From Candidatus Harrisonbacteria bacterium (GTDB lineage Bacteria; Patescibacteriota; Minisyncoccia; UBA6257; 02-FULL-45-10c), in contig JACPTS010000001.1 of the NCBI GenBank assembly GCA_016192685.1, positions 394,628-458,627 on the forward strand: DNA of 64,000 bases, in the 5' to 3' direction. Both the position numbers and the translations under genes were made by a program. This document shows positions 40,792 to 46,295 of this stretch, in pieces. The notes beneath the pieces are model-generated. The model saw only the letters and a list, made by a program, of their open reading frames with translations. It was not told where the DNA came from and did no database searches. How positions within the stretch are numbered: position 1 is the first letter of the stretch; each line of letters begins with the position of its first letter.

Positions 40792-42234
40792 ATGAATAAA
40801 TTTTATATAACAACTTCTATTGCCTATGTTAACGCGCCGCCCCATCTTGGTTTTGCTTTGGAATCGGTGCAGGCGGATGTTTTGGCGCGCTGGCATCGCC
40901 AGCAAGGCGATGAGGTATTTTTTTTAACCGGCACGGATGAGCATGGGGCCAAAATTGTCCGCGCTGCTGAAGCGGCCGGAAAAACATCGAAAGAATTAAC
41001 GGATGAAAATTCAGAAAATTTTAAAGCTTTAAAATCCGCGCTTAATTTATCGTGGGATAATTTTATTAGGACTTCTGACCAAAAGGTTCATTGGCCAGTG
41101 GCACAGGAGCTATGGAAAAGATTGGAAAAAGCCAGCGATTTATATAAAAAAACCTATCAAGGGCTATATTGCGTTGGTCATGAGGCATTTGTTACTCAAA
41201 AGGATTTGGAAAATGGAAAATGCCGCGACCATCAAAAAGAGCCGGAAGCGCTGGAGGAAGAAAATTGGTTTTTTCGGCTTTCTAAATATACCAAAGATAT
41301 AGAAATAAGAATTAAGAATGAAGAATTAAGAATTATGCCGGAGACCAGAAAAAATGAAATTTTATCGTTTTTAAGCGACGGGCTGGAAGATATCAGTTTT
41401 TCCAGGCCGGCTAAAGATTTATCCTGGGGCGTGCCAGTGCCGAATGACCCGAGTCAGACAATGTATGTTTGGGCAGACGCGCTTGCCAATTATATTAGCG
41501 GCAAAGACGGAATTAAAAAATGGGAGGAACATCCGGCAGATATTCATTTAATCGGCAAAGATATTTTGCGGTTTCACGCCGCAATTTGGCCGGCCATGTT
41601 GCTTTCGGCGGGGCTTCCGCTGCCTAAAGCCATTTATGTCCACGGCCATATTTTAGTTGACGGGGAAAAGATGTCTAAAACCGTTGGCAATGTAATAGAT
41701 CCATTTGAGCTGGTTAAAAAATACGGAGTTGATCCGGTGCGTTATTTTCTTTTGCGGGAAATTCCATCCGGAGAAGACGGCGATTTTAGTTATAAAAAAT
41801 TTGAAGAGCGGTATAATGGCGATTTAGCCAATGGGCTTGGAAATTTTGCGGCTCGCGTTTTAACGCTAGCCAGCAAAGAGAAAAAATTAGGGGGTAAGGC
41901 GGAAGAGGGTATTGGTGGAAAAATAGAAGCTGCTAAAGCAGCCGTATTGAGAAAAACCGAAGAGTTTAAATTAAATGAAGCCTTAGAAGCGCTTTGGAGT
42001 TTAATCCATTTTGGCGACCAATATGTGAATGAGAAAAAGCCGTGGGACAAAGAACAAACGACTGACGACCAACGACTAACAACAATTTATAATGCCGTGG
42101 TAATTTTGGATAATGTGGCGGCAATGCTGGCGCCGTTTTTGCCGGCCACCGCGGAGAAAATTACCGATTCAATTCACTGGTCTGACGGCAAATTAGAAAT
42201 AAAAAAAGGCGAAGTTTTGTTTCCTCGCCTGTGA
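40792..42234 (+). CDS. metG: methionyl-tRNA synthetase (short form)
   Basis: HIGH-region (TTSIAYVNAPPHLGFA) and KMSKT motif. It contains two in-frame heptamer repeat tracts (41307-41334 and 42058-42085). Confidence 0.85.
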   Translation: MNKFYITTSIAYVNAPPHLGFALESVQADVLARWHRQQGDEVFFLTGTDEHGAKIVRAAEAAGKTSKELTDENSENFKALKSALNLSWDNFIRTSDQKVHWPVAQELWKRLEKASDLYKKTYQGLYCVGHEAFVTQKDLENGKCRDHQKEPEALEEENWFFRLSKYTKDIEIRIKNEELRIMPETRKNEILSFLSDGLEDISFSRPAKDLSWGVPVPNDPSQTMYVWADALANYISGKDGIKKWEEHPADIHLIGKDILRFHAAIWPAMLLSAGLPLPKAIYVHGHILVDGEKMSKTVGNVIDPFELVKKYGVDPVRYFLLREIPSGEDGDFSYKKFEERYNGDLANGLGNFAARVLTLASKEKKLGGKAEEGIGGKIEAAKAAVLRKTEEFKLNEALEALWSLIHFGDQYVNEKKPWDKEQTTDDQRLTTIYNAVVILDNVAAMLAPFLPATAEKITDSIHWSDGKLEIKKGEVLFPRL

Positions 42235-42249
42235 AAATTGCGGAAAAGT

Positions 42250-42915
42250 TCAATAGTTGATGGCTGTTCGGCTGCGGAAACGGTTGATTTCCGGATTATC
42301 CAGGAACCACCGGATTGCTGTTTCTGTTTCTTGAATAAGGGAAACTATTTCTTCGGCCCTGGATTTTTTATTCCCGCGGAATAAATTTCTTATTTTTTTG
42401 ATAAACGGCGGATAAATTGTTTGGGAATATCTTTCATTAAAAATCTCCTTCCGTTCTTTTAAGAATCCTTTTTGGATAACGGATTTTAGAGTTTCTCCGG
42501 CTACCGCGTCCACGATCATTTTTTCACCTCTTAAAATTTGAAGATCGGCCGGATCGCCGGCGGTTTTGGTAAGATTAAAAAGAGTTACTTCTATCCGATA
42601 GTTTAGAGTTTTTATGCCAAAGAGTTTTTCATTTTCCGAAGCGGTTTCGCTGCGCGCGATGGAAAGCCAAACAGCAGAATCTAATTTTCCCAGCGGCAGA
42701 ATGGCATTCAGATAATCTCCCGGCACTTTGTAGATATTAAAGAGAGCGGTTTCTTTCGGGCGAAAGCAATAAACATCCCGGTGTTTAAAAAGATTTTCCG
42801 GAATTTTGGCAAAGAATTGGAAAATACCCTCATCAATATCCGCTTCCATTTTTTCGGATAATTTTTCAAGGTAGCTAAGGATGGGGTCGGGGTTTTCCAT
42901 GCCGTGGGCGGCCAC
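42250..42915 (-). CDS. hypothetical protein
   Basis: 221-aa ORF with no recognisable motif. Confidence 0.45.
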   Translation of the reverse strand: MAAHGMENPDPILSYLEKLSEKMEADIDEGIFQFFAKIPENLFKHRDVYCFRPKETALFNIYKVPGDYLNAILPLGKLDSAVWLSIARSETASENEKLFGIKTLNYRIEVTLFNLTKTAGDPADLQILRGEKMIVDAVAGETLKSVIQKGFLKERKEIFNERYSQTIYPPFIKKIRNLFRGNKKSRAEEIVSLIQETETAIRWFLDNPEINRFRSRTAINY

Positions 42916-43800: not shown

Positions 43801-43877
43801 TTCTTTTCCACAAGGACATCTTCTATATTATATTAAAGACTGGTATTTTTAATTTATATAGATTTATTAGAATAGCT

Positions 43878-46295
43878 ATGTCTTTTTATAATCCTAAAAA
43901 AATTGAATCAAAGTGGCAAAAATGGTGGGAGAAAAAGCGGATTTTTCAGGCGGAGGATTCGGCGCGCGGCAAAGAAAATTTTTATCATCTGGTGATGTTT
44001 CCGTATCCTTCCGGCGACCTTCACATCGGCCATTGGTATAATTTCGGCCCGGCGGATGTTTATGCCCGATATAAGCGGATGCGGGGTTTTAATGTTATGA
44101 GCCCGATCGGTTTTGACGCCTTTGGCTTGCCGGCGGAGAATGCCGCTATTAAACGTAAAATCCATCCTCAAAAATGGACAATGCAGAACATTAAAGCGAT
44201 GACCAAACAGCTTAAATCAATGGGCAATAGCTATGACTGGTCGCGTTTGATAATTACTTGTTTGCCGGAATACTATCAGTGGAATCAGTGGCTTTTTTTA
44301 AAACTTTACGAAAAAGGCCTGGCTTATCGGAAAAAAGCTCCGGCCAATTGGTGCCCCTCCTGCAAGACGGTGCTGGCCAATGAGCAGGTGATTGAGGGTA
44401 AATGCGAGCGCTGTGACAGCGAGGTAACGCAAAAGGAAATTGAGCAATGGCTGTTTAAAATTACGGATTATGCCGAACGGCTTTTAGATGATTTGGAAAT
44501 GTTAGATTGGCCGGAACGAACGAAAATTATGCAGCGTAACTGGATTGGCCGGTCTGAAGGCGCGGAAATTGATTTTCCGGTAACGGATTCTAATTTGAAA
44601 ATAAAAGTTTTTACTACCCGAGCTGATACTTTGCCGGGAGCGACTTATTTGGTTTTAGCGCCGGAACACGAACTTCTTAATTTGCTTAGCGCCAGAATTT
44701 TAAATAAAAACGCCGTGAATGAATATATTGAAAAAGCCAAGCATAAATCGGAGTTGGAACGCTTGGCGGAAACTAAAATTAAAACCGGCGTAGAAGCCAA
44801 AGGCATTACGGCAATCAATCCCTACACCAAAAAGGAAATTCCGATTTGGATTTCTGATTATGTCATCGGCGGCTATGGCACTGGCGCCATTATGGCGGTT
44901 CCGGCTCACGATGAGCGGGACTTTGCTTTTGCCAAAGAATTTAGCCTGCCGATTTTGCCGGTGGTTGTTGACGGGAAATTGCCGGAGGGAGAAATAAAAG
45001 AGGCGTATTTTGGCGATGGAGTGATGGTAAATTCCGGAGAATTGGACAATCTGCCGAATCATATTGCCAAAGACCGGATTATTGAGTTGGCTGGCGGAAA
45101 GAAAAAAATTAACTATAAGCTTCGGGACTGGCTGATTTCCCGCCAGCGGTATTGGGGCGCGCCGATTCCGATTATTTATTGTTCTTTGTGCGGAACAGTG
45201 CCGGTGCCCGAAAAAGATTTGCCGGTTGTTTTGCCGAAGATTAAAGATTTTAATCCGGAAGGCACCGGTAAATCGCCGCTGGCTAAATCCAAAAAATTTG
45301 TGAATGTTGCTTGCCCGAAATGCGGCGGCGCGGCCGAACGGGAAACGGACACCATGGATACTTTCGTGGATTCTTCCTGGTATTTTATTCGTTATGCCGA
45401 TTCTCAAAATAAAGAATCTCTGGCGGAAGAGAAAAAAATTAAAGCCTGGCTGCCGGTAAAAATCTATGTTGGCGGCGCCGAACATACCGTGCTCCATCTT
45501 TTATATTCCCGGTTTTTTACTAAATTTTTGTACGATCAGGAGTTGGTGAATTTTAAAGAGCCGTTTCTGGCGCTCCGGCATCAGGGTATTATTTTAGGCC
45601 CGGACGGCCAAAAAATGTCTAAATCCCGCGGCAATGTTGTTGACCCGGATGATTTGGTGGAAAAGTTCGGCGCCGATTCCGTCCGGATGCATCTTTGTTT
45701 TATGGGCGAATATCATCATGGCGGCCCCTGGAATCCAACCGGCATTTTGGGGGTGCATCGGTTTTTGGGAAGGGTGTGGAAATTAATAAATGACCAACGA
45801 CCAACGACCAACGACCAACGACAAGAAGATAAAAATTTAGAAAAATTGTTTCATCAGACGATTAAAAAAGTCGGAGAAGATATTGAAGCGTTTAAGTTTA
45901 ACACCGCTGTTTCGGCGTTAATGATTCTTCTTAATGAGATAGAGAAACAAAAAAGCCATTTGTCGCCCGCCGCTTGTCAAATATTTATTAAATTATTGGC
46001 TCCTTTTGCTCCGCATCTTGCCGAAGAGTTATGGCAAAAGTTCGGCAATGAAACTTCAATTCATTTGGAAAAATGGCCGGAATATGACGAGAAATTAGTT
46101 ATGGAAGAAGAATTTGAGCTTTTGATTCAAATCAACGGCAAACTGCGGGATAAAGTTGTGGCGCCAAAAACCATTTCTCAAGAAGAAGCGGAAAAGCTCG
46201 CGCTGGATAGAGAAAGAGTTCAGGATCAGCTTAGTAAGAAAAAACCGAAGAAAGTAATTTTCGTTCCAGGCAGGTTAATTAATATTGTTATCTAA
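43878..46295 (+). CDS. leuS: leucyl-tRNA synthetase
   Basis: HIGH ([15 protein letters not shown]) and KMSKS motifs and the CP1 editing domain. It contains a GACCAAC tandem repeat at about 45792. Confidence 0.95.

What the first reader, a model, noticed from the sequence alone, without database searches (positions are those of the whole stretch)
41307..45826. Short heptanucleotide tandem repeats inserted in-frame in three adjacent essential genes (metG, tatD, leuS), with a shared ACGACYR family
metG carries (AAGAATK)x4 at 41307-41334 and ACGACTG-ACGACCA-ACGACTA-ACAACAA at 42058-42085. tatD carries ACGACTA-ACGACCA-ACGACTG-ACGACGA at 43306-43333, almost the same 28-mer as in metG, plus (TAATTCC)x4 at 43460-43487. 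leuS carries (GACCAAC)x4-5 at about 45792-45826. Each tract keeps the reading frame and adds roughly 8-14 residues at what look like surface/linker positions, for example ...TTDDQRLTTI... and ...[10 protein letters not shown].... Near-identical 28-30-nt tracts occur in unrelated genes within 4 kb. That argues for a small, mobile or templated insertion element that tolerates, or is selected for, in-frame insertion. Rickettsia palindromic elements are a precedent for in-frame repeats in housekeeping genes, but these are far smaller and are tandem heptamers. The exact unit count in leuS could not be reconciled with the supplied translation. It should be re-counted computationally.
Basis: seen in the sequence. 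Interest (0 to 1): 0.65.

Follow-up and report, generated by a model that had tools for sequence, protein, structure and literature searches.

The report
Seven-base repeats inside housekeeping genes
Five short runs of a repeated 7-base unit really do sit in frame inside the metG, tatD and leuS genes of this ultra-small (Patescibacteria) bacterium, but they are ordinary heptanucleotide microsatellites that mostly overwrite variable protein segments without changing their length, not small mobile insertions, and this bacterial group carries them about 80 times more densely than other bacteria.

Summary
All five tracts are at the stated coordinates. Period 7 is the only short period enriched in the window. 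leuS holds 4.4 perfect GACCAAC units (45792-45822).

- Four of the five tracts add 0-1 residue. Only tatD_a is longer than solved TatD structures (+7 aa, or 3 units).
- Relatives with the same gene order carry period-7 DNA at the same sites with different units.
- Some unit changes are shared by all units of an orthologous array: CTAACGA here, CTAGCGA in L090, ACAACNN in L086.
- In all 15 coding arrays whose unit contains a stop codon, a deviation from the unit falls on that stop.
- Period-7 arrays occur at 8-9 per 100 kb in 32 Patescibacteria loci and 0.1 per 100 kb in 56 other loci.
- In leuS, 16 arrays from 11 genomes are mostly length-neutral.

Best reading: these are heptanucleotide simple-sequence repeats, a known class. 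They arise at the DNA level by strand misalignment. The reading frame filters them, and they persist at tolerant hot spots.

The ACGAC family is confined to this 4-kb region in the window and in two relatives, and metG_b is new in this lineage. That suggests local templated copying, which is unproven.

Novelty is moderate.

The parts
41301..41335 (+). metG_a: (AGAATTA/AAGAATT) x5.0 inside MetRS, encoding IEIRIKNEELRIM. It is length-neutral and is conserved as a GAATNAN period-7 patch in L083, L086, L090 and L091.
   Evidence: TRF; translation; orthologs; alignment to MetRS 2CSX without an insertion. The one deviant unit, AAGAATG, removes an in-frame TAA.
42057..42085 (+). metG_b: ACGACTG ACGACCA ACGACTA ACAACAA inside MetRS (QTTDDQRLTT), directly after the KPW motif. 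It is specific to the window lineage and adds one codon versus relatives.
   Evidence: L083 has (NNNCAGG) period-7 DNA at the same site (lag-7 identity 0.70); L086 and L088 lack the tract. There is no insertion versus 2CSX or 4DLP.
43301..43333 (+). tatD_a: (CTAACGA = ACGACTA) x4.4 inside TatD ([12 protein letters not shown]). It spans the loop after strand beta4 and the start of helix alpha4. It is +7 aa versus solved TatD proteins.
   Evidence: Orthologous arrays sit in the same register in L083, L086 (ACAACNN), L090 (CTAGCGA), L088 and L214. The unit ACGACCA removes an in-frame TAA.
43458..43490 (+). tatD_b: (CCTAATT) x4.7 inside TatD ([12 protein letters not shown]), in the alpha5-beta6 loop. 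It is length-neutral: 39 nt between anchors in six of seven genomes and 36 nt in L092.
   Evidence: The single deviant unit, CAATTCC, removes an in-frame TAA. Other genomes carry CTWACAA, CCTAAAC or GATTACC units at this site. The same peptide with synonymous drift occurs in L214.
45792..45822 (+). leuS array: (GACCAAC) x4.4, 100% perfect, inside LeuRS ([10 protein letters not shown]). It lies in the variable linker before the anticodon-binding domain and is length-neutral.
   Evidence: L083 has 5.1 perfect units at the same protein length because of two edge substitutions. The unit has no stop in any sense frame.
2362..2405 (+). Intergenic heptamer array (GAATAAT / GGTATNA), the left arm of an inverted pair.
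   Evidence: TRF; inverted repeat of 32 nt, 78% complementary; RNA fold no better than shuffles.
2420..2452 (+). Intergenic heptamer array (CATAATT) x4.6, the right arm of the inverted pair. It belongs to the GAATTAN family on the opposite strand.
49282..49313 (+). Intergenic heptamer array (GTTATTN) x4.6 in the spacer between two minus-strand genes.
40792..42234 (+). metG (methionyl-tRNA synthetase, 480 aa), host gene of two arrays.
   Evidence: PDB matches at E = 3e-121.
42958..43800 (+). tatD-family hydrolase (280 aa), host gene of two arrays.
   Evidence: AF2 model with mean pLDDT 93.
43878..46295 (+). leuS (leucyl-tRNA synthetase, 805 aa), host gene of one array.

Best explanation
The tracts are heptanucleotide simple-sequence repeats. 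They fit the class of long SSRs with 5-11-nt units that Mrazek et al. described in 2007, in which heptamers are the commonest unit. The cyanobacterial STRR repeats are another example of this class.

They are a lineage-wide genomic habit of Patescibacteria. This window comes from a Candidatus Harrisonbacteria genome.

Shown:
- The periodicity is 7 nt at the DNA level, so each unit is read in all three frames in turn.
- The arrays sit in sequence-variable and mostly fixed-length segments of conserved proteins. The same segments carry period-7 DNA with different units in related genomes.
- They usually replace native sequence rather than add to it.
- In orthologous arrays a unit change can be shared by all units. 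This is concerted evolution.
- In every coding array whose unit contains a stop, a deviation from the unit falls on the codon that would otherwise be that stop.

Inferred mechanism:
- Misalignment of the nascent and template strands in a 7-nt register creates and homogenises the arrays. This means replication slippage or unequal exchange, possibly with transient misalignment followed by realignment.
- In open reading frames only frame-preserving and near length-neutral outcomes without stops survive. Slippage steps must be 3 units (21 nt, 7 aa).
- Once fixed, the encoded peptide can come under ordinary protein-level constraint.

Also inferred: the ACGAC family spread from the old tatD_a array to neighbouring sites by short-range template switching or ectopic conversion. 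The targets were tatD_b in the L083 and L086 genomes, leuS in the window and L083, and metG_b in the window only.

No function need be assumed. The tracts are tolerated mutational by-products.
For: Period specificity. Only lag 7 is enriched in the window.

Lineage-wide excess. Period-7 arrays occur at 8.1 per 100 kb in 8 loci of this clade. They occur at 9.0 per 100 kb in 24 other Patescibacteria loci. They occur at 0.1 per 100 kb in 56 non-Patescibacteria LeuRS loci of similar G+C (lists).

DNA-level origin.
- Intergenic arrays exist.
- Lag-7 nucleotide identity at the TatD sites is 0.38-0.79, against about 0.1-0.5 at lags 5, 6, 8 and 9.
- Of 36 coding arrays, 21 have stop-free units and 6 of those are perfect. 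In all 15 with a stop-containing unit, the perfect array would carry one in-frame stop and a deviation falls on it. In tatD_b, L090 site a and L044 that is the only deviation.
- 72% of intergenic units contain stops, against 42% of coding units.

Hot spots and turnover.
- 120 TatD homologs show 7-aa-periodic peptides at two fixed loops. Lag-7 amino-acid identity is 0.17 and 0.14, against about 0.05 elsewhere.
- DNA from 8 genomes shows six unit types at site a and four at site b, with site b 39 nt in six of seven genomes and 36 nt in L092.
- Three LeuRS segments carry arrays in 3-4 genomes each.

Concerted evolution.
- At site a the arrays are in the same register. The unit is CTAACGA in the window and CTAGCGA in L090. 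L086 has ACAAC where the window has ACGAC in all four units.

Length neutrality.
- In most of the 16 leuS arrays the segment length equals the ortholog median or differs by one residue.
- There are no insertions versus solved MetRS or LeuRS.
- tatD_a is +7 aa, which is 3 units.
- The leuS array in L083 is longer than the window's only through two edge substitutions.

Literature. Heptamers are the most abundant long-SSR unit, with a polymerase-slippage proposal (Mrazek 2007, as summarised in PMC4679880). Heptamer repeats inside ORFs were noted in Beggiatoaceae.
Against: - Simple slippage predicts added length and copy-number polymorphism. Most arrays are length-neutral, and no polymorphism was seen, although identical-protein look-ups could not reveal it.
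- No excess of substitutions matching the base 7 nt away exists outside arrays, among 1731 window-versus-L083 differences. A general 7-nt templating bias is therefore not shown.
- Complete replacement of a patch by an unrelated unit family at the same site and the same length is awkward for gradual concerted evolution. This applies to tatD_b in the window versus L083, and to metG_b.
- Part of that replacement may reflect allelic recombination. Third-codon identity is 0.63 in tatD and 0.79 in leuS.
- In L214 the tatD_b peptide is identical while the DNA has drifted synonymously. This shows protein-level constraint rather than ongoing homogenisation at that site.
- Why the register is 7 nt is unexplained.
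- The census rests on about 0.6 Mb of Patescibacteria DNA around one gene, not on whole genomes.
Confidence: 0.6

Rival explanations
1. A dedicated or at least distinct templated patch-rewriting process. Stretches of about 30 nt in coding DNA are overwritten, with length preserved, by a copy of an existing heptamer array from nearby. The route would be copy-choice, template switching or ectopic gene conversion, or an enzyme that synthesises reiterated heptamers at a repair gap.
For: - The ACRAC family is confined to the metG-tatD-leuS 4 kb in the window, L083 and L086. It is absent from the 36 arrays in the 24 other Patescibacteria loci.
- Its distribution is nested: tatD_a in all three, tatD_b in L083 and L086, leuS in the window and L083, metG_b in the window only.
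- metG_b and tatD_a are 24/28 identical and share a similar 3' flank (ATTTATAAT versus ATTAAAAAT).
- metG_b and tatD_b are replaced at chance-level identity inside flanks that are 85-90% identical.
- Arrays are length-neutral.
- ACGAC is not a universally favoured core. A scrambled core is as common in IMG/VR.
Against: - The T/C alternation shared by metG_b and tatD_a is forced by stop avoidance in the same reading phase. The 24/28 identity is therefore weak evidence of copying.
- No donor-identical copy was found.
- Most genomes show unrelated families at neighbouring sites.
- Mosaic divergence suggests that allelic recombination could explain the tatD_b difference.
- No candidate enzyme was identified.
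Confidence: 0.2
2. One reading: a small mobile insertion element, a miniature analogue of Rickettsia palindromic elements, that inserts in frame and adds 8-14 residues.
For: Similar 28-31-nt tracts occur in three neighbouring genes. metG_b is specific to this lineage.
Against: - Four of the five tracts add 0-1 residue.
- There are no conserved ends, no target duplication and no palindromy.
- Unit sequence and copy number vary continuously.
- Arrays sit at orthologous sites in relatives down to about 70% identity.
- Dozens of unrelated unit types occur across Patescibacteria.
- No further copies occur in 64 kb.
Confidence: 0.05
3. Phase-variable contingency loci. The 7-nt unit is not a multiple of 3, so gain or loss of a unit would switch the gene off and on.
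For: The unit length is not divisible by 3, and the leuS array is perfect, at 4.4-5.1 units.
Against: - The host genes are housekeeping genes, two of them aminoacyl-tRNA synthetases. Their being essential and single-copy is assumed, not tested.
- The arrays are short, and most are interrupted exactly where a stop would arise.
- Independent assemblies show the same copy number.
- The window and L083 differ by substitutions, not by unit number.
Confidence: 0.03
4. Native protein sequence. The periodicity would be a by-product of selected peptide repeats, or of chance plus codon bias.
For: The peptides at metG_a and tatD_a are conserved among relatives. The tatD_b peptide is conserved with synonymous drift in L214.
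Against: - The period is 7 nt, not 21 nt.
- Intergenic arrays of the same families exist.
- Control lags give no signal.
- Deviations fall on stop-creating codons, which shows a repeat written first and repaired by selection afterwards.
Confidence: 0.05
5. Assembly or sequencing artefact.
For: None.
Against: Sequence is identical in independent Logan assemblies. Orthologous arrays occur in ENA, NCBI and JGI assemblies.
Confidence: 0.01

Closest known systems
Long simple sequence repeats with 5-11-nt units, heptanucleotides commonest (Mrazek, Guo and Shah 2007, known here through PMC4679880 and PMC4692102)
   Same: Tandem 7-nt units occur in short arrays of a few copies, with many unit sequences. 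The excess is specific to period 7, and a strand-slippage origin has been proposed.
   Different: The published cases are described as mainly intergenic and come from large genomes such as Burkholderia, Xanthomonas, cyanobacteria and actinobacteria. Here the host is a roughly 0.6-Mb Patescibacteria genome. More than half of the arrays lie inside conserved ORFs, at recurrent hot spots, and are mostly length-neutral.
Cyanobacterial STRR heptanucleotide repeats (Mazel et al. 1990; from my own knowledge and)
   Same: Heptamer units form genome-specific families present at several loci.
   Different: STRR arrays are intergenic and often long, and they occur in heterocystous cyanobacteria. The unit sequences are unrelated (CCCCAGT, TTGGTCA, CAACAGT).
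TAACTGA direct repeats of Beggiatoaceae, cyanobacteria and Bacteroidetes (PMC4679880)
   Same: Arrays have 2-6 heptamer copies. A minority lie inside ORFs, read in three frames, and the position of stops in the unit dictates where they can sit.
   Different: There a single unit dominates the genome and lies mostly just upstream of start codons, which suggests a regulatory role. The ORF cases are at protein termini. Here many units occur in internal segments of housekeeping enzymes.
GGGNATC repeats of Xanthomonas and Nostoc (PMC4692102)
   Same: The unit is a heptamer, and about four units are preferred.
   Different: [quoted passage not shown] The units here are not G-rich.
Rickettsia palindromic elements (from my own knowledge)
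   Same: Repeated DNA is tolerated in frame inside housekeeping genes.
   Different: RPEs are dispersed palindromic elements of about 100-150 bp that add a peptide segment. The tracts here are 28-35 nt, tandem, non-palindromic and mostly add nothing.
Phase-variable SSR contingency loci (Haemophilus, Neisseria)
   Same: An SSR lies inside an ORF with a unit that is not a multiple of 3.
   Different: Contingency loci are long perfect tracts in surface or restriction genes with copy-number polymorphism. Here the arrays are short and interrupted, in housekeeping genes, with no polymorphism seen.

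Membership tests
Heptanucleotide long simple sequence repeats (LSSR) | Head-to-tail tandem copies of a unit of 5-11 nt, here 7 | tested here: met
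   TRF gives period 7, 3.4-5.0 copies and 76-100% matches for all five tracts.
Heptanucleotide long simple sequence repeats (LSSR) | Arrays longer or more frequent than expected from composition | tested here: met
   Shuffles and control lags give 0, against 7 segments at lag 7.
Heptanucleotide long simple sequence repeats (LSSR) | A genome- or lineage-wide property with many loci and many unit sequences | tested here: met
   8-9 arrays per 100 kb in 32 Patescibacteria loci, against 0.1 per 100 kb in 56 other loci. Only loci around leuS were sampled, not whole genomes.
Heptanucleotide long simple sequence repeats (LSSR) | Copy-number change by slippage | tested here: inconclusive
   Coding arrays of 7.1-7.3 copies occur against a mode of 4.4-4.7, and tatD_a is +7 aa (3 units). 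However, most arrays are length-neutral, and no reads were available.
Cyanobacterial STRR | Heptamer families of heterocystous cyanobacteria, intergenic | tested here: not met
   The organism is Candidatus Harrisonbacteria. The five tracts are coding, and the units are unrelated.
Rickettsia palindromic element-like mobile insertion | A dispersed element of defined sequence and length with palindromic structure | tested here: not met
   The tracts are 28-35 nt and tandem, not palindromic. The ACGAC family has no other copy in 64 kb. Units vary among orthologs.
Rickettsia palindromic element-like mobile insertion | Presence or absence as an insertion relative to orthologs | tested here: not met
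   The tracts add 0-1 residue in four of five cases. The leuS arrays of 11 genomes are mostly length-neutral.
Phase-variable contingency locus | Unit-number polymorphism that toggles the reading frame | not testable with these tools
   No read data were available. Independent assemblies are identical. The window and L083 differ by substitutions only.
Phase-variable contingency locus | Located in a dispensable, environment-facing gene | tested here: not met
   The hosts are MetRS, LeuRS and a TatD hydrolase.
Small dispersed repeats of Nostoc (Elhai 2008; from memory, paper not held) | Fixed 21-27-nt sequences inserted at many loci | tested here: not met
   No fixed sequence exists. Units and copy numbers differ among sites and genomes.

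The most novel reading that the evidence does not exclude
Patescibacteria possess a previously undescribed mutational process that preserves length. It overwrites roughly 30-nt segments of coding DNA with tandem heptamers, either templated from a nearby array or synthesised reiteratively during repair. This repeatedly rewrites the same fixed-length segments of essential enzymes. It would explain why heptamers dominate bacterial long SSRs.
Probability: 0.2. Interest if true: 0.75.

Novelty: new variant of a known kind. Interest (0 to 1): 0.52.

Why it matters
The excess of heptanucleotide repeats in bacteria has been noted since 1990 and 2007 without a mechanism.

This work shows three things:
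- A whole radiation of reduced-genome bacteria carries the repeats about 80-fold more densely than other bacteria sampled at the same locus.
- The repeats sit inside aminoacyl-tRNA synthetases and other conserved enzymes at recurrent hot spots.
- There they are length-neutral and interrupted exactly at would-be stop codons.

Coding arrays give a natural experiment. The reading frame records what the underlying process can and cannot do, and orthologs allow events to be dated.

There are practical consequences too. The tracts create lineage-specific peptides such as TTNDQRP, LIPNSQF and IRIKNEE in conserved proteins. These can mislead alignment, homology-based insertion calls and phylogenetic marker trimming for Patescibacteria.

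I found no paper linking heptanucleotide repeats, simple sequence repeats or microsatellites to Patescibacteria or the Candidate Phyla Radiation in the held library.

Tried and rejected
- **Insertion hypothesis.** Codon alignments with three and then seven syntenic relatives, plus PDB alignments, showed replacement rather than insertion.
- **Universal ACGAC element.** A metagenome scan found more than 120 ACGACNN x4 arrays in contigs with G+C of 0.29-0.74. Among the examples examined was one in an 833-aa ORF resembling MutS2 (my reading of the sequence, no family search run). Viral-contig controls showed a scrambled core is equally common (101 versus 65 stretches). These hits are therefore background heptamer SSRs.
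- **Genome-wide templated substitution at plus or minus 7 nt.** No signal was found outside arrays.
- **RNA structure for the inverted intergenic arrays at 2362-2452.** The fold is no better than shuffles, z = -0.48.
- **Replication origin or terminus near the cluster.** GC skew is positive across the whole window.
- **Rfam and tRNA scans.** Nothing overlaps the tracts.
- **Loop lengths in 7-aa steps in TatD.** No clear pattern emerged by eye.
- **Elhai 2008 paper on small dispersed repeats.** It is not held.
- **GTDB representative scan for close relatives.** The best hit was only 62% identical. Closer relatives came from the protein database.

Full report
**1. Observation**

The window is a 43% G+C stretch of a Candidatus Harrisonbacteria (Patescibacteria) genome. 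The identical LeuRS is so named by NCBI and lies on a 608-kb contig.

TRF reports them as period-7 arrays:

| Tract | Coordinates | Unit | Copies |
|---|---|---|---|
| metG_a | 41301-41335 | AGAATTA | 5.0 |
| metG_b | 42057-42080 | ACGACYR family | 3.4, extending to 42085 as ACAACAA |
| tatD_a | 43301-43331 | GACTAAC | 4.4 |
| tatD_b | 43458-43490 | CCTAATT | 4.7 |
| leuS | 45792-45822 | GACCAAC | 4.4, 100% perfect |

That is 31 nt, read as [15 protein letters not shown].

All five lie in frame in MetRS (40792-42234), a TatD-family hydrolase (42958-43800) and LeuRS (43878-46295).

The signal is not chance.
- At a threshold of at least 16 of 21 matches, lag 7 gives seven segments in 64 kb. Lags 4, 5, 8, 10, 11 and 13 give none.
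- Shuffles give none.
- The ACGAC periodic pattern has 9 matches against 0.36 expected.

It is not an assembly artefact. Two Logan assemblies are 100% identical over 5.5 kb.

Three further arrays are intergenic: 2362-2405, 2420-2452 and 49282-49313.

**2. The tracts are not insertions**

Relatives with the same gene order were recovered. By LeuRS identity they are L083 (93%), L086 (76%) and L088 (70%). Four further loci of the clade are L090 to L093.

Codon alignments and alignments to solved structures give the following:
- metG_a adds no residues.
- metG_b adds one residue versus relatives and none versus the *A. aeolicus* or *Brucella* MetRS.
- tatD_b adds none. There are 39 nt between anchors in six of seven genomes and 36 nt in L092.
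- The leuS tract lies in a linker that is 9 residues longer in *T. thermophilus* LeuRS.
- Only tatD_a is longer than solved TatD proteins. It is longer by 7 residues, which is exactly three heptamers.

An AlphaFold model of TatD has mean pLDDT 93.
- tatD_a lies in the beta4-alpha4 loop and the start of alpha4.
- tatD_b lies in the alpha5-beta6 loop.
- Both regions have lower local confidence, with 10-residue block means of 80-86 against 93-98 for the flanking blocks.

**3. The same sites are heptamer hot spots in relatives**

At TatD site a, DNA from eight genomes is period-7 with these units:

| Genome | Unit at site a |
|---|---|
| window | CTAACGA |
| L090 | CTAGCGA |
| L088 | TTAGCGN |
| L086 | ACAACNN |
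| L092 | NGAATNA |
| L093 | AAAGTGN |

At site b the units are CTAATTC (window), CTWACAA (L086), CCTAAAC (L090, L091) and GATTACC (L092).

Across 120 TatD homologs, the two loops show amino-acid identity at lag 7 of 0.17 and 0.14. Elsewhere in the protein it is about 0.05.

The window and L090 arrays at site a are in the same register and differ by one base in every unit. L086 has ACAAC where the window has ACGAC in all four units. This is concerted evolution of an orthologous array.

- metG_a is conserved as a GAATNAN patch in four relatives.
- The leuS array is shared with L083. L088 has GATCAGA units at the same place.
- At the metG_b site, L083 carries a different period-7 patch (NNNCAGG, lag-7 identity 0.70). 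The ACGAC tract there is therefore new in the window lineage.

**4. A Patescibacteria-wide trait**

TRF was run on 88 loci around leuS:

| Group | Loci | Period-7 arrays per 100 kb |
|---|---|---|
| Harrisonbacteria clade | 8 | 8.1 |
| Other Patescibacteria | 24 | 9.0 |
| Non-Patescibacteria, similar G+C | 56 | 0.1 |

- Period 7 accounts for 52 of the 69 short-period arrays in Patescibacteria loci.
- More than half lie inside long ORFs, many of them in leuS itself.
- For 16 arrays inside leuS from 11 genomes, the containing segment usually has the same length as the ortholog median. The values are 9/9, 12/12 four times, 14/14 three times, 22/21 twice, 17/16 and 14/13.
- Two cases are moderately longer (24 and 25 against 21).
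- Only two are clearly longer (22 against 9, and 30 against 21).
- Three LeuRS segments are recurrent hot spots.

**5. A DNA-level origin filtered by the reading frame**

A 7-nt unit is read in all three frames in turn.
- Of 36 coding arrays, 21 have units without a stop in any sense frame. Six of those are perfect, including leuS here.
- In all 15 arrays whose unit contains a stop, a perfect array would carry one in-frame stop, and a deviation from the unit falls on it.
- In tatD_b (TAATTCC to CAATTCC), in L090 site a and in L044, that is the only deviation.
- The T/C alternation in metG_b and tatD_a is the same effect: ACGACTA would give TAA. Much of their 24/28 identity is therefore forced.
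- Intergenic arrays use stop-containing units more often (72% against 42%).

**6. Mechanism**

I conclude that these are heptanucleotide simple-sequence repeats. The literature already records heptamers as the commonest long-SSR unit and proposes polymerase-related slippage. It also records a preference for about four units in other heptamer repeats, and occasional heptamer repeats inside ORFs.

What is shown here:
- the DNA-level periodicity;
- the hot spots;
- concerted unit changes;
- stop avoidance;
- length neutrality.

What is inferred: arrays are created and homogenised by strand misalignment in a 7-nt register. Selection then leaves only stop-free, frame-preserving and near length-neutral outcomes.

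Observations against a simple version of this model:
- The length neutrality itself.
- The lack of any plus or minus 7 templating signal outside arrays.
- Complete family replacement at one site.
- Part of that replacement may be allelic recombination, because synonymous-site identity between the window and L083 varies from 0.63 (tatD) to 0.84.
- In L214 the tatD_b peptide is identical but the DNA has drifted synonymously. Old arrays therefore also come under protein-level constraint.

**7. The shared ACGAC family**

The family is strictly local.
- All matches in the window are in the three tracts.
- In L083 and L086 it occurs only in tatD and leuS.
- None of the 36 arrays in the 24 other Patescibacteria loci belongs to it.

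Its distribution is nested:
- tatD_a in all three genomes;
- tatD_b in L083 and L086;
- leuS in the window and L083;
- metG_b in the window only.

A universal preference for this core is excluded as far as the controls go. In IMG/VR a scrambled core is as frequent (101 against 65 stretches). Period 8 is rarer (28). The more than 120 metagenome hits are background.

Short-range templated copying from the old tatD_a array is therefore a reasonable but unproven addition. A true mobile mini-element is not supported.

**8. Novelty and verdict**

The class is known. What is new:
- its density in Patescibacteria;
- its systematic occupation of internal segments of housekeeping enzymes;
- the hot-spot turnover;
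- the length neutrality.

I found no paper linking heptanucleotide repeats, simple sequence repeats or microsatellites to Patescibacteria or the Candidate Phyla Radiation in the held library.

I rate this a new variant of a known kind, with interest about 0.5.

The most novel reading not excluded is a distinct length-preserving rewriting process. I give it about 0.2 probability.

Noticed in passing
window 2362-2452: Two intergenic heptamer arrays (GAATAAT and CATAATT) lie in inverted orientation, with 32-nt arms 78% complementary. They sit between ORF 1292-2362 and ORF 2462-3430. They belong to the same GAATNAN family as metG_a. The predicted RNA fold is no better than shuffles.
   Followed up: partly
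window 49282-49313: A (GTTATTN) x4.6 heptamer array fills most of the 47-nt spacer between two minus-strand genes. By synteny these are an HtrA-like protease and a cation ATPase.
   Followed up: no
window 39695-46301 versus L083 5765-12424: Synonymous-site identity between the window and its closest relative differs by gene. It is 0.79 in leuS, 0.84 in the 216-aa ORF, 0.63 in tatD and 0.67 in metG. This suggests a mosaic, recombining history. L083 also carries extra genes at this locus, including an RVT_1 reverse-transcriptase fragment plus HicB, glmS and metE.
   Followed up: partly
TatD homologs P0147, P0162, P0204, P0178, P0141, P0226: Short LAGQAK, LRQAQGK or LPGQG peptides are inserted within the heptamer loops of TatD in several lineages and at both sites. 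They may represent a different recurrent mini-insertion.
   Followed up: no
L088 TatD loop a: A G+C-rich 13-residue insertion (RRNPASGGGYRIT) contains a CCGCC..GGCGG inverted repeat inside an otherwise A+T-rich gene. It looks like a small hairpin element inserted in frame, closer to the RPE analogy than the heptamer tracts are.
   Followed up: no
glmS in L083 12540-12892, L086 14724-15066 and L090 15134-15171: glmS of relatives has two further heptamer hot spots, about +110 and +400 nt from the start. Units are AGTGGAA, GAAAGTA, AGAATAA and AGAAATG. glmS is not at this position in the window.
   Followed up: partly
LeuRS residues about 229-243 in L012, L014, L020 and L039: Four Patescibacteria genomes carry heptamer arrays (AAATTTC, AATTCCC, AAATACA) over the conserved-length segment just before the VFTTR motif of LeuRS. 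The arrays keep a pattern of spaced hydrophobic residues (for example KFQISNFKFQIE). Arrays may therefore encode structured elements and not only loops; the structural role of this segment was not checked here.
   Followed up: partly
window 1-445: The 3' end of the 23S rRNA (1-244) and a 5S rRNA (327-445) lie at the start of the window. Nine tRNA genes are scattered through it.
   Followed up: no
L090 10536-10571 and L091 10520-10551: The TatD site b unit in these genomes is CCCTAAA or CCTATAC. CCCTAAA is the complement of the plant-type telomere repeat TTTAGGG. This is presumably a coincidence.
   Followed up: no
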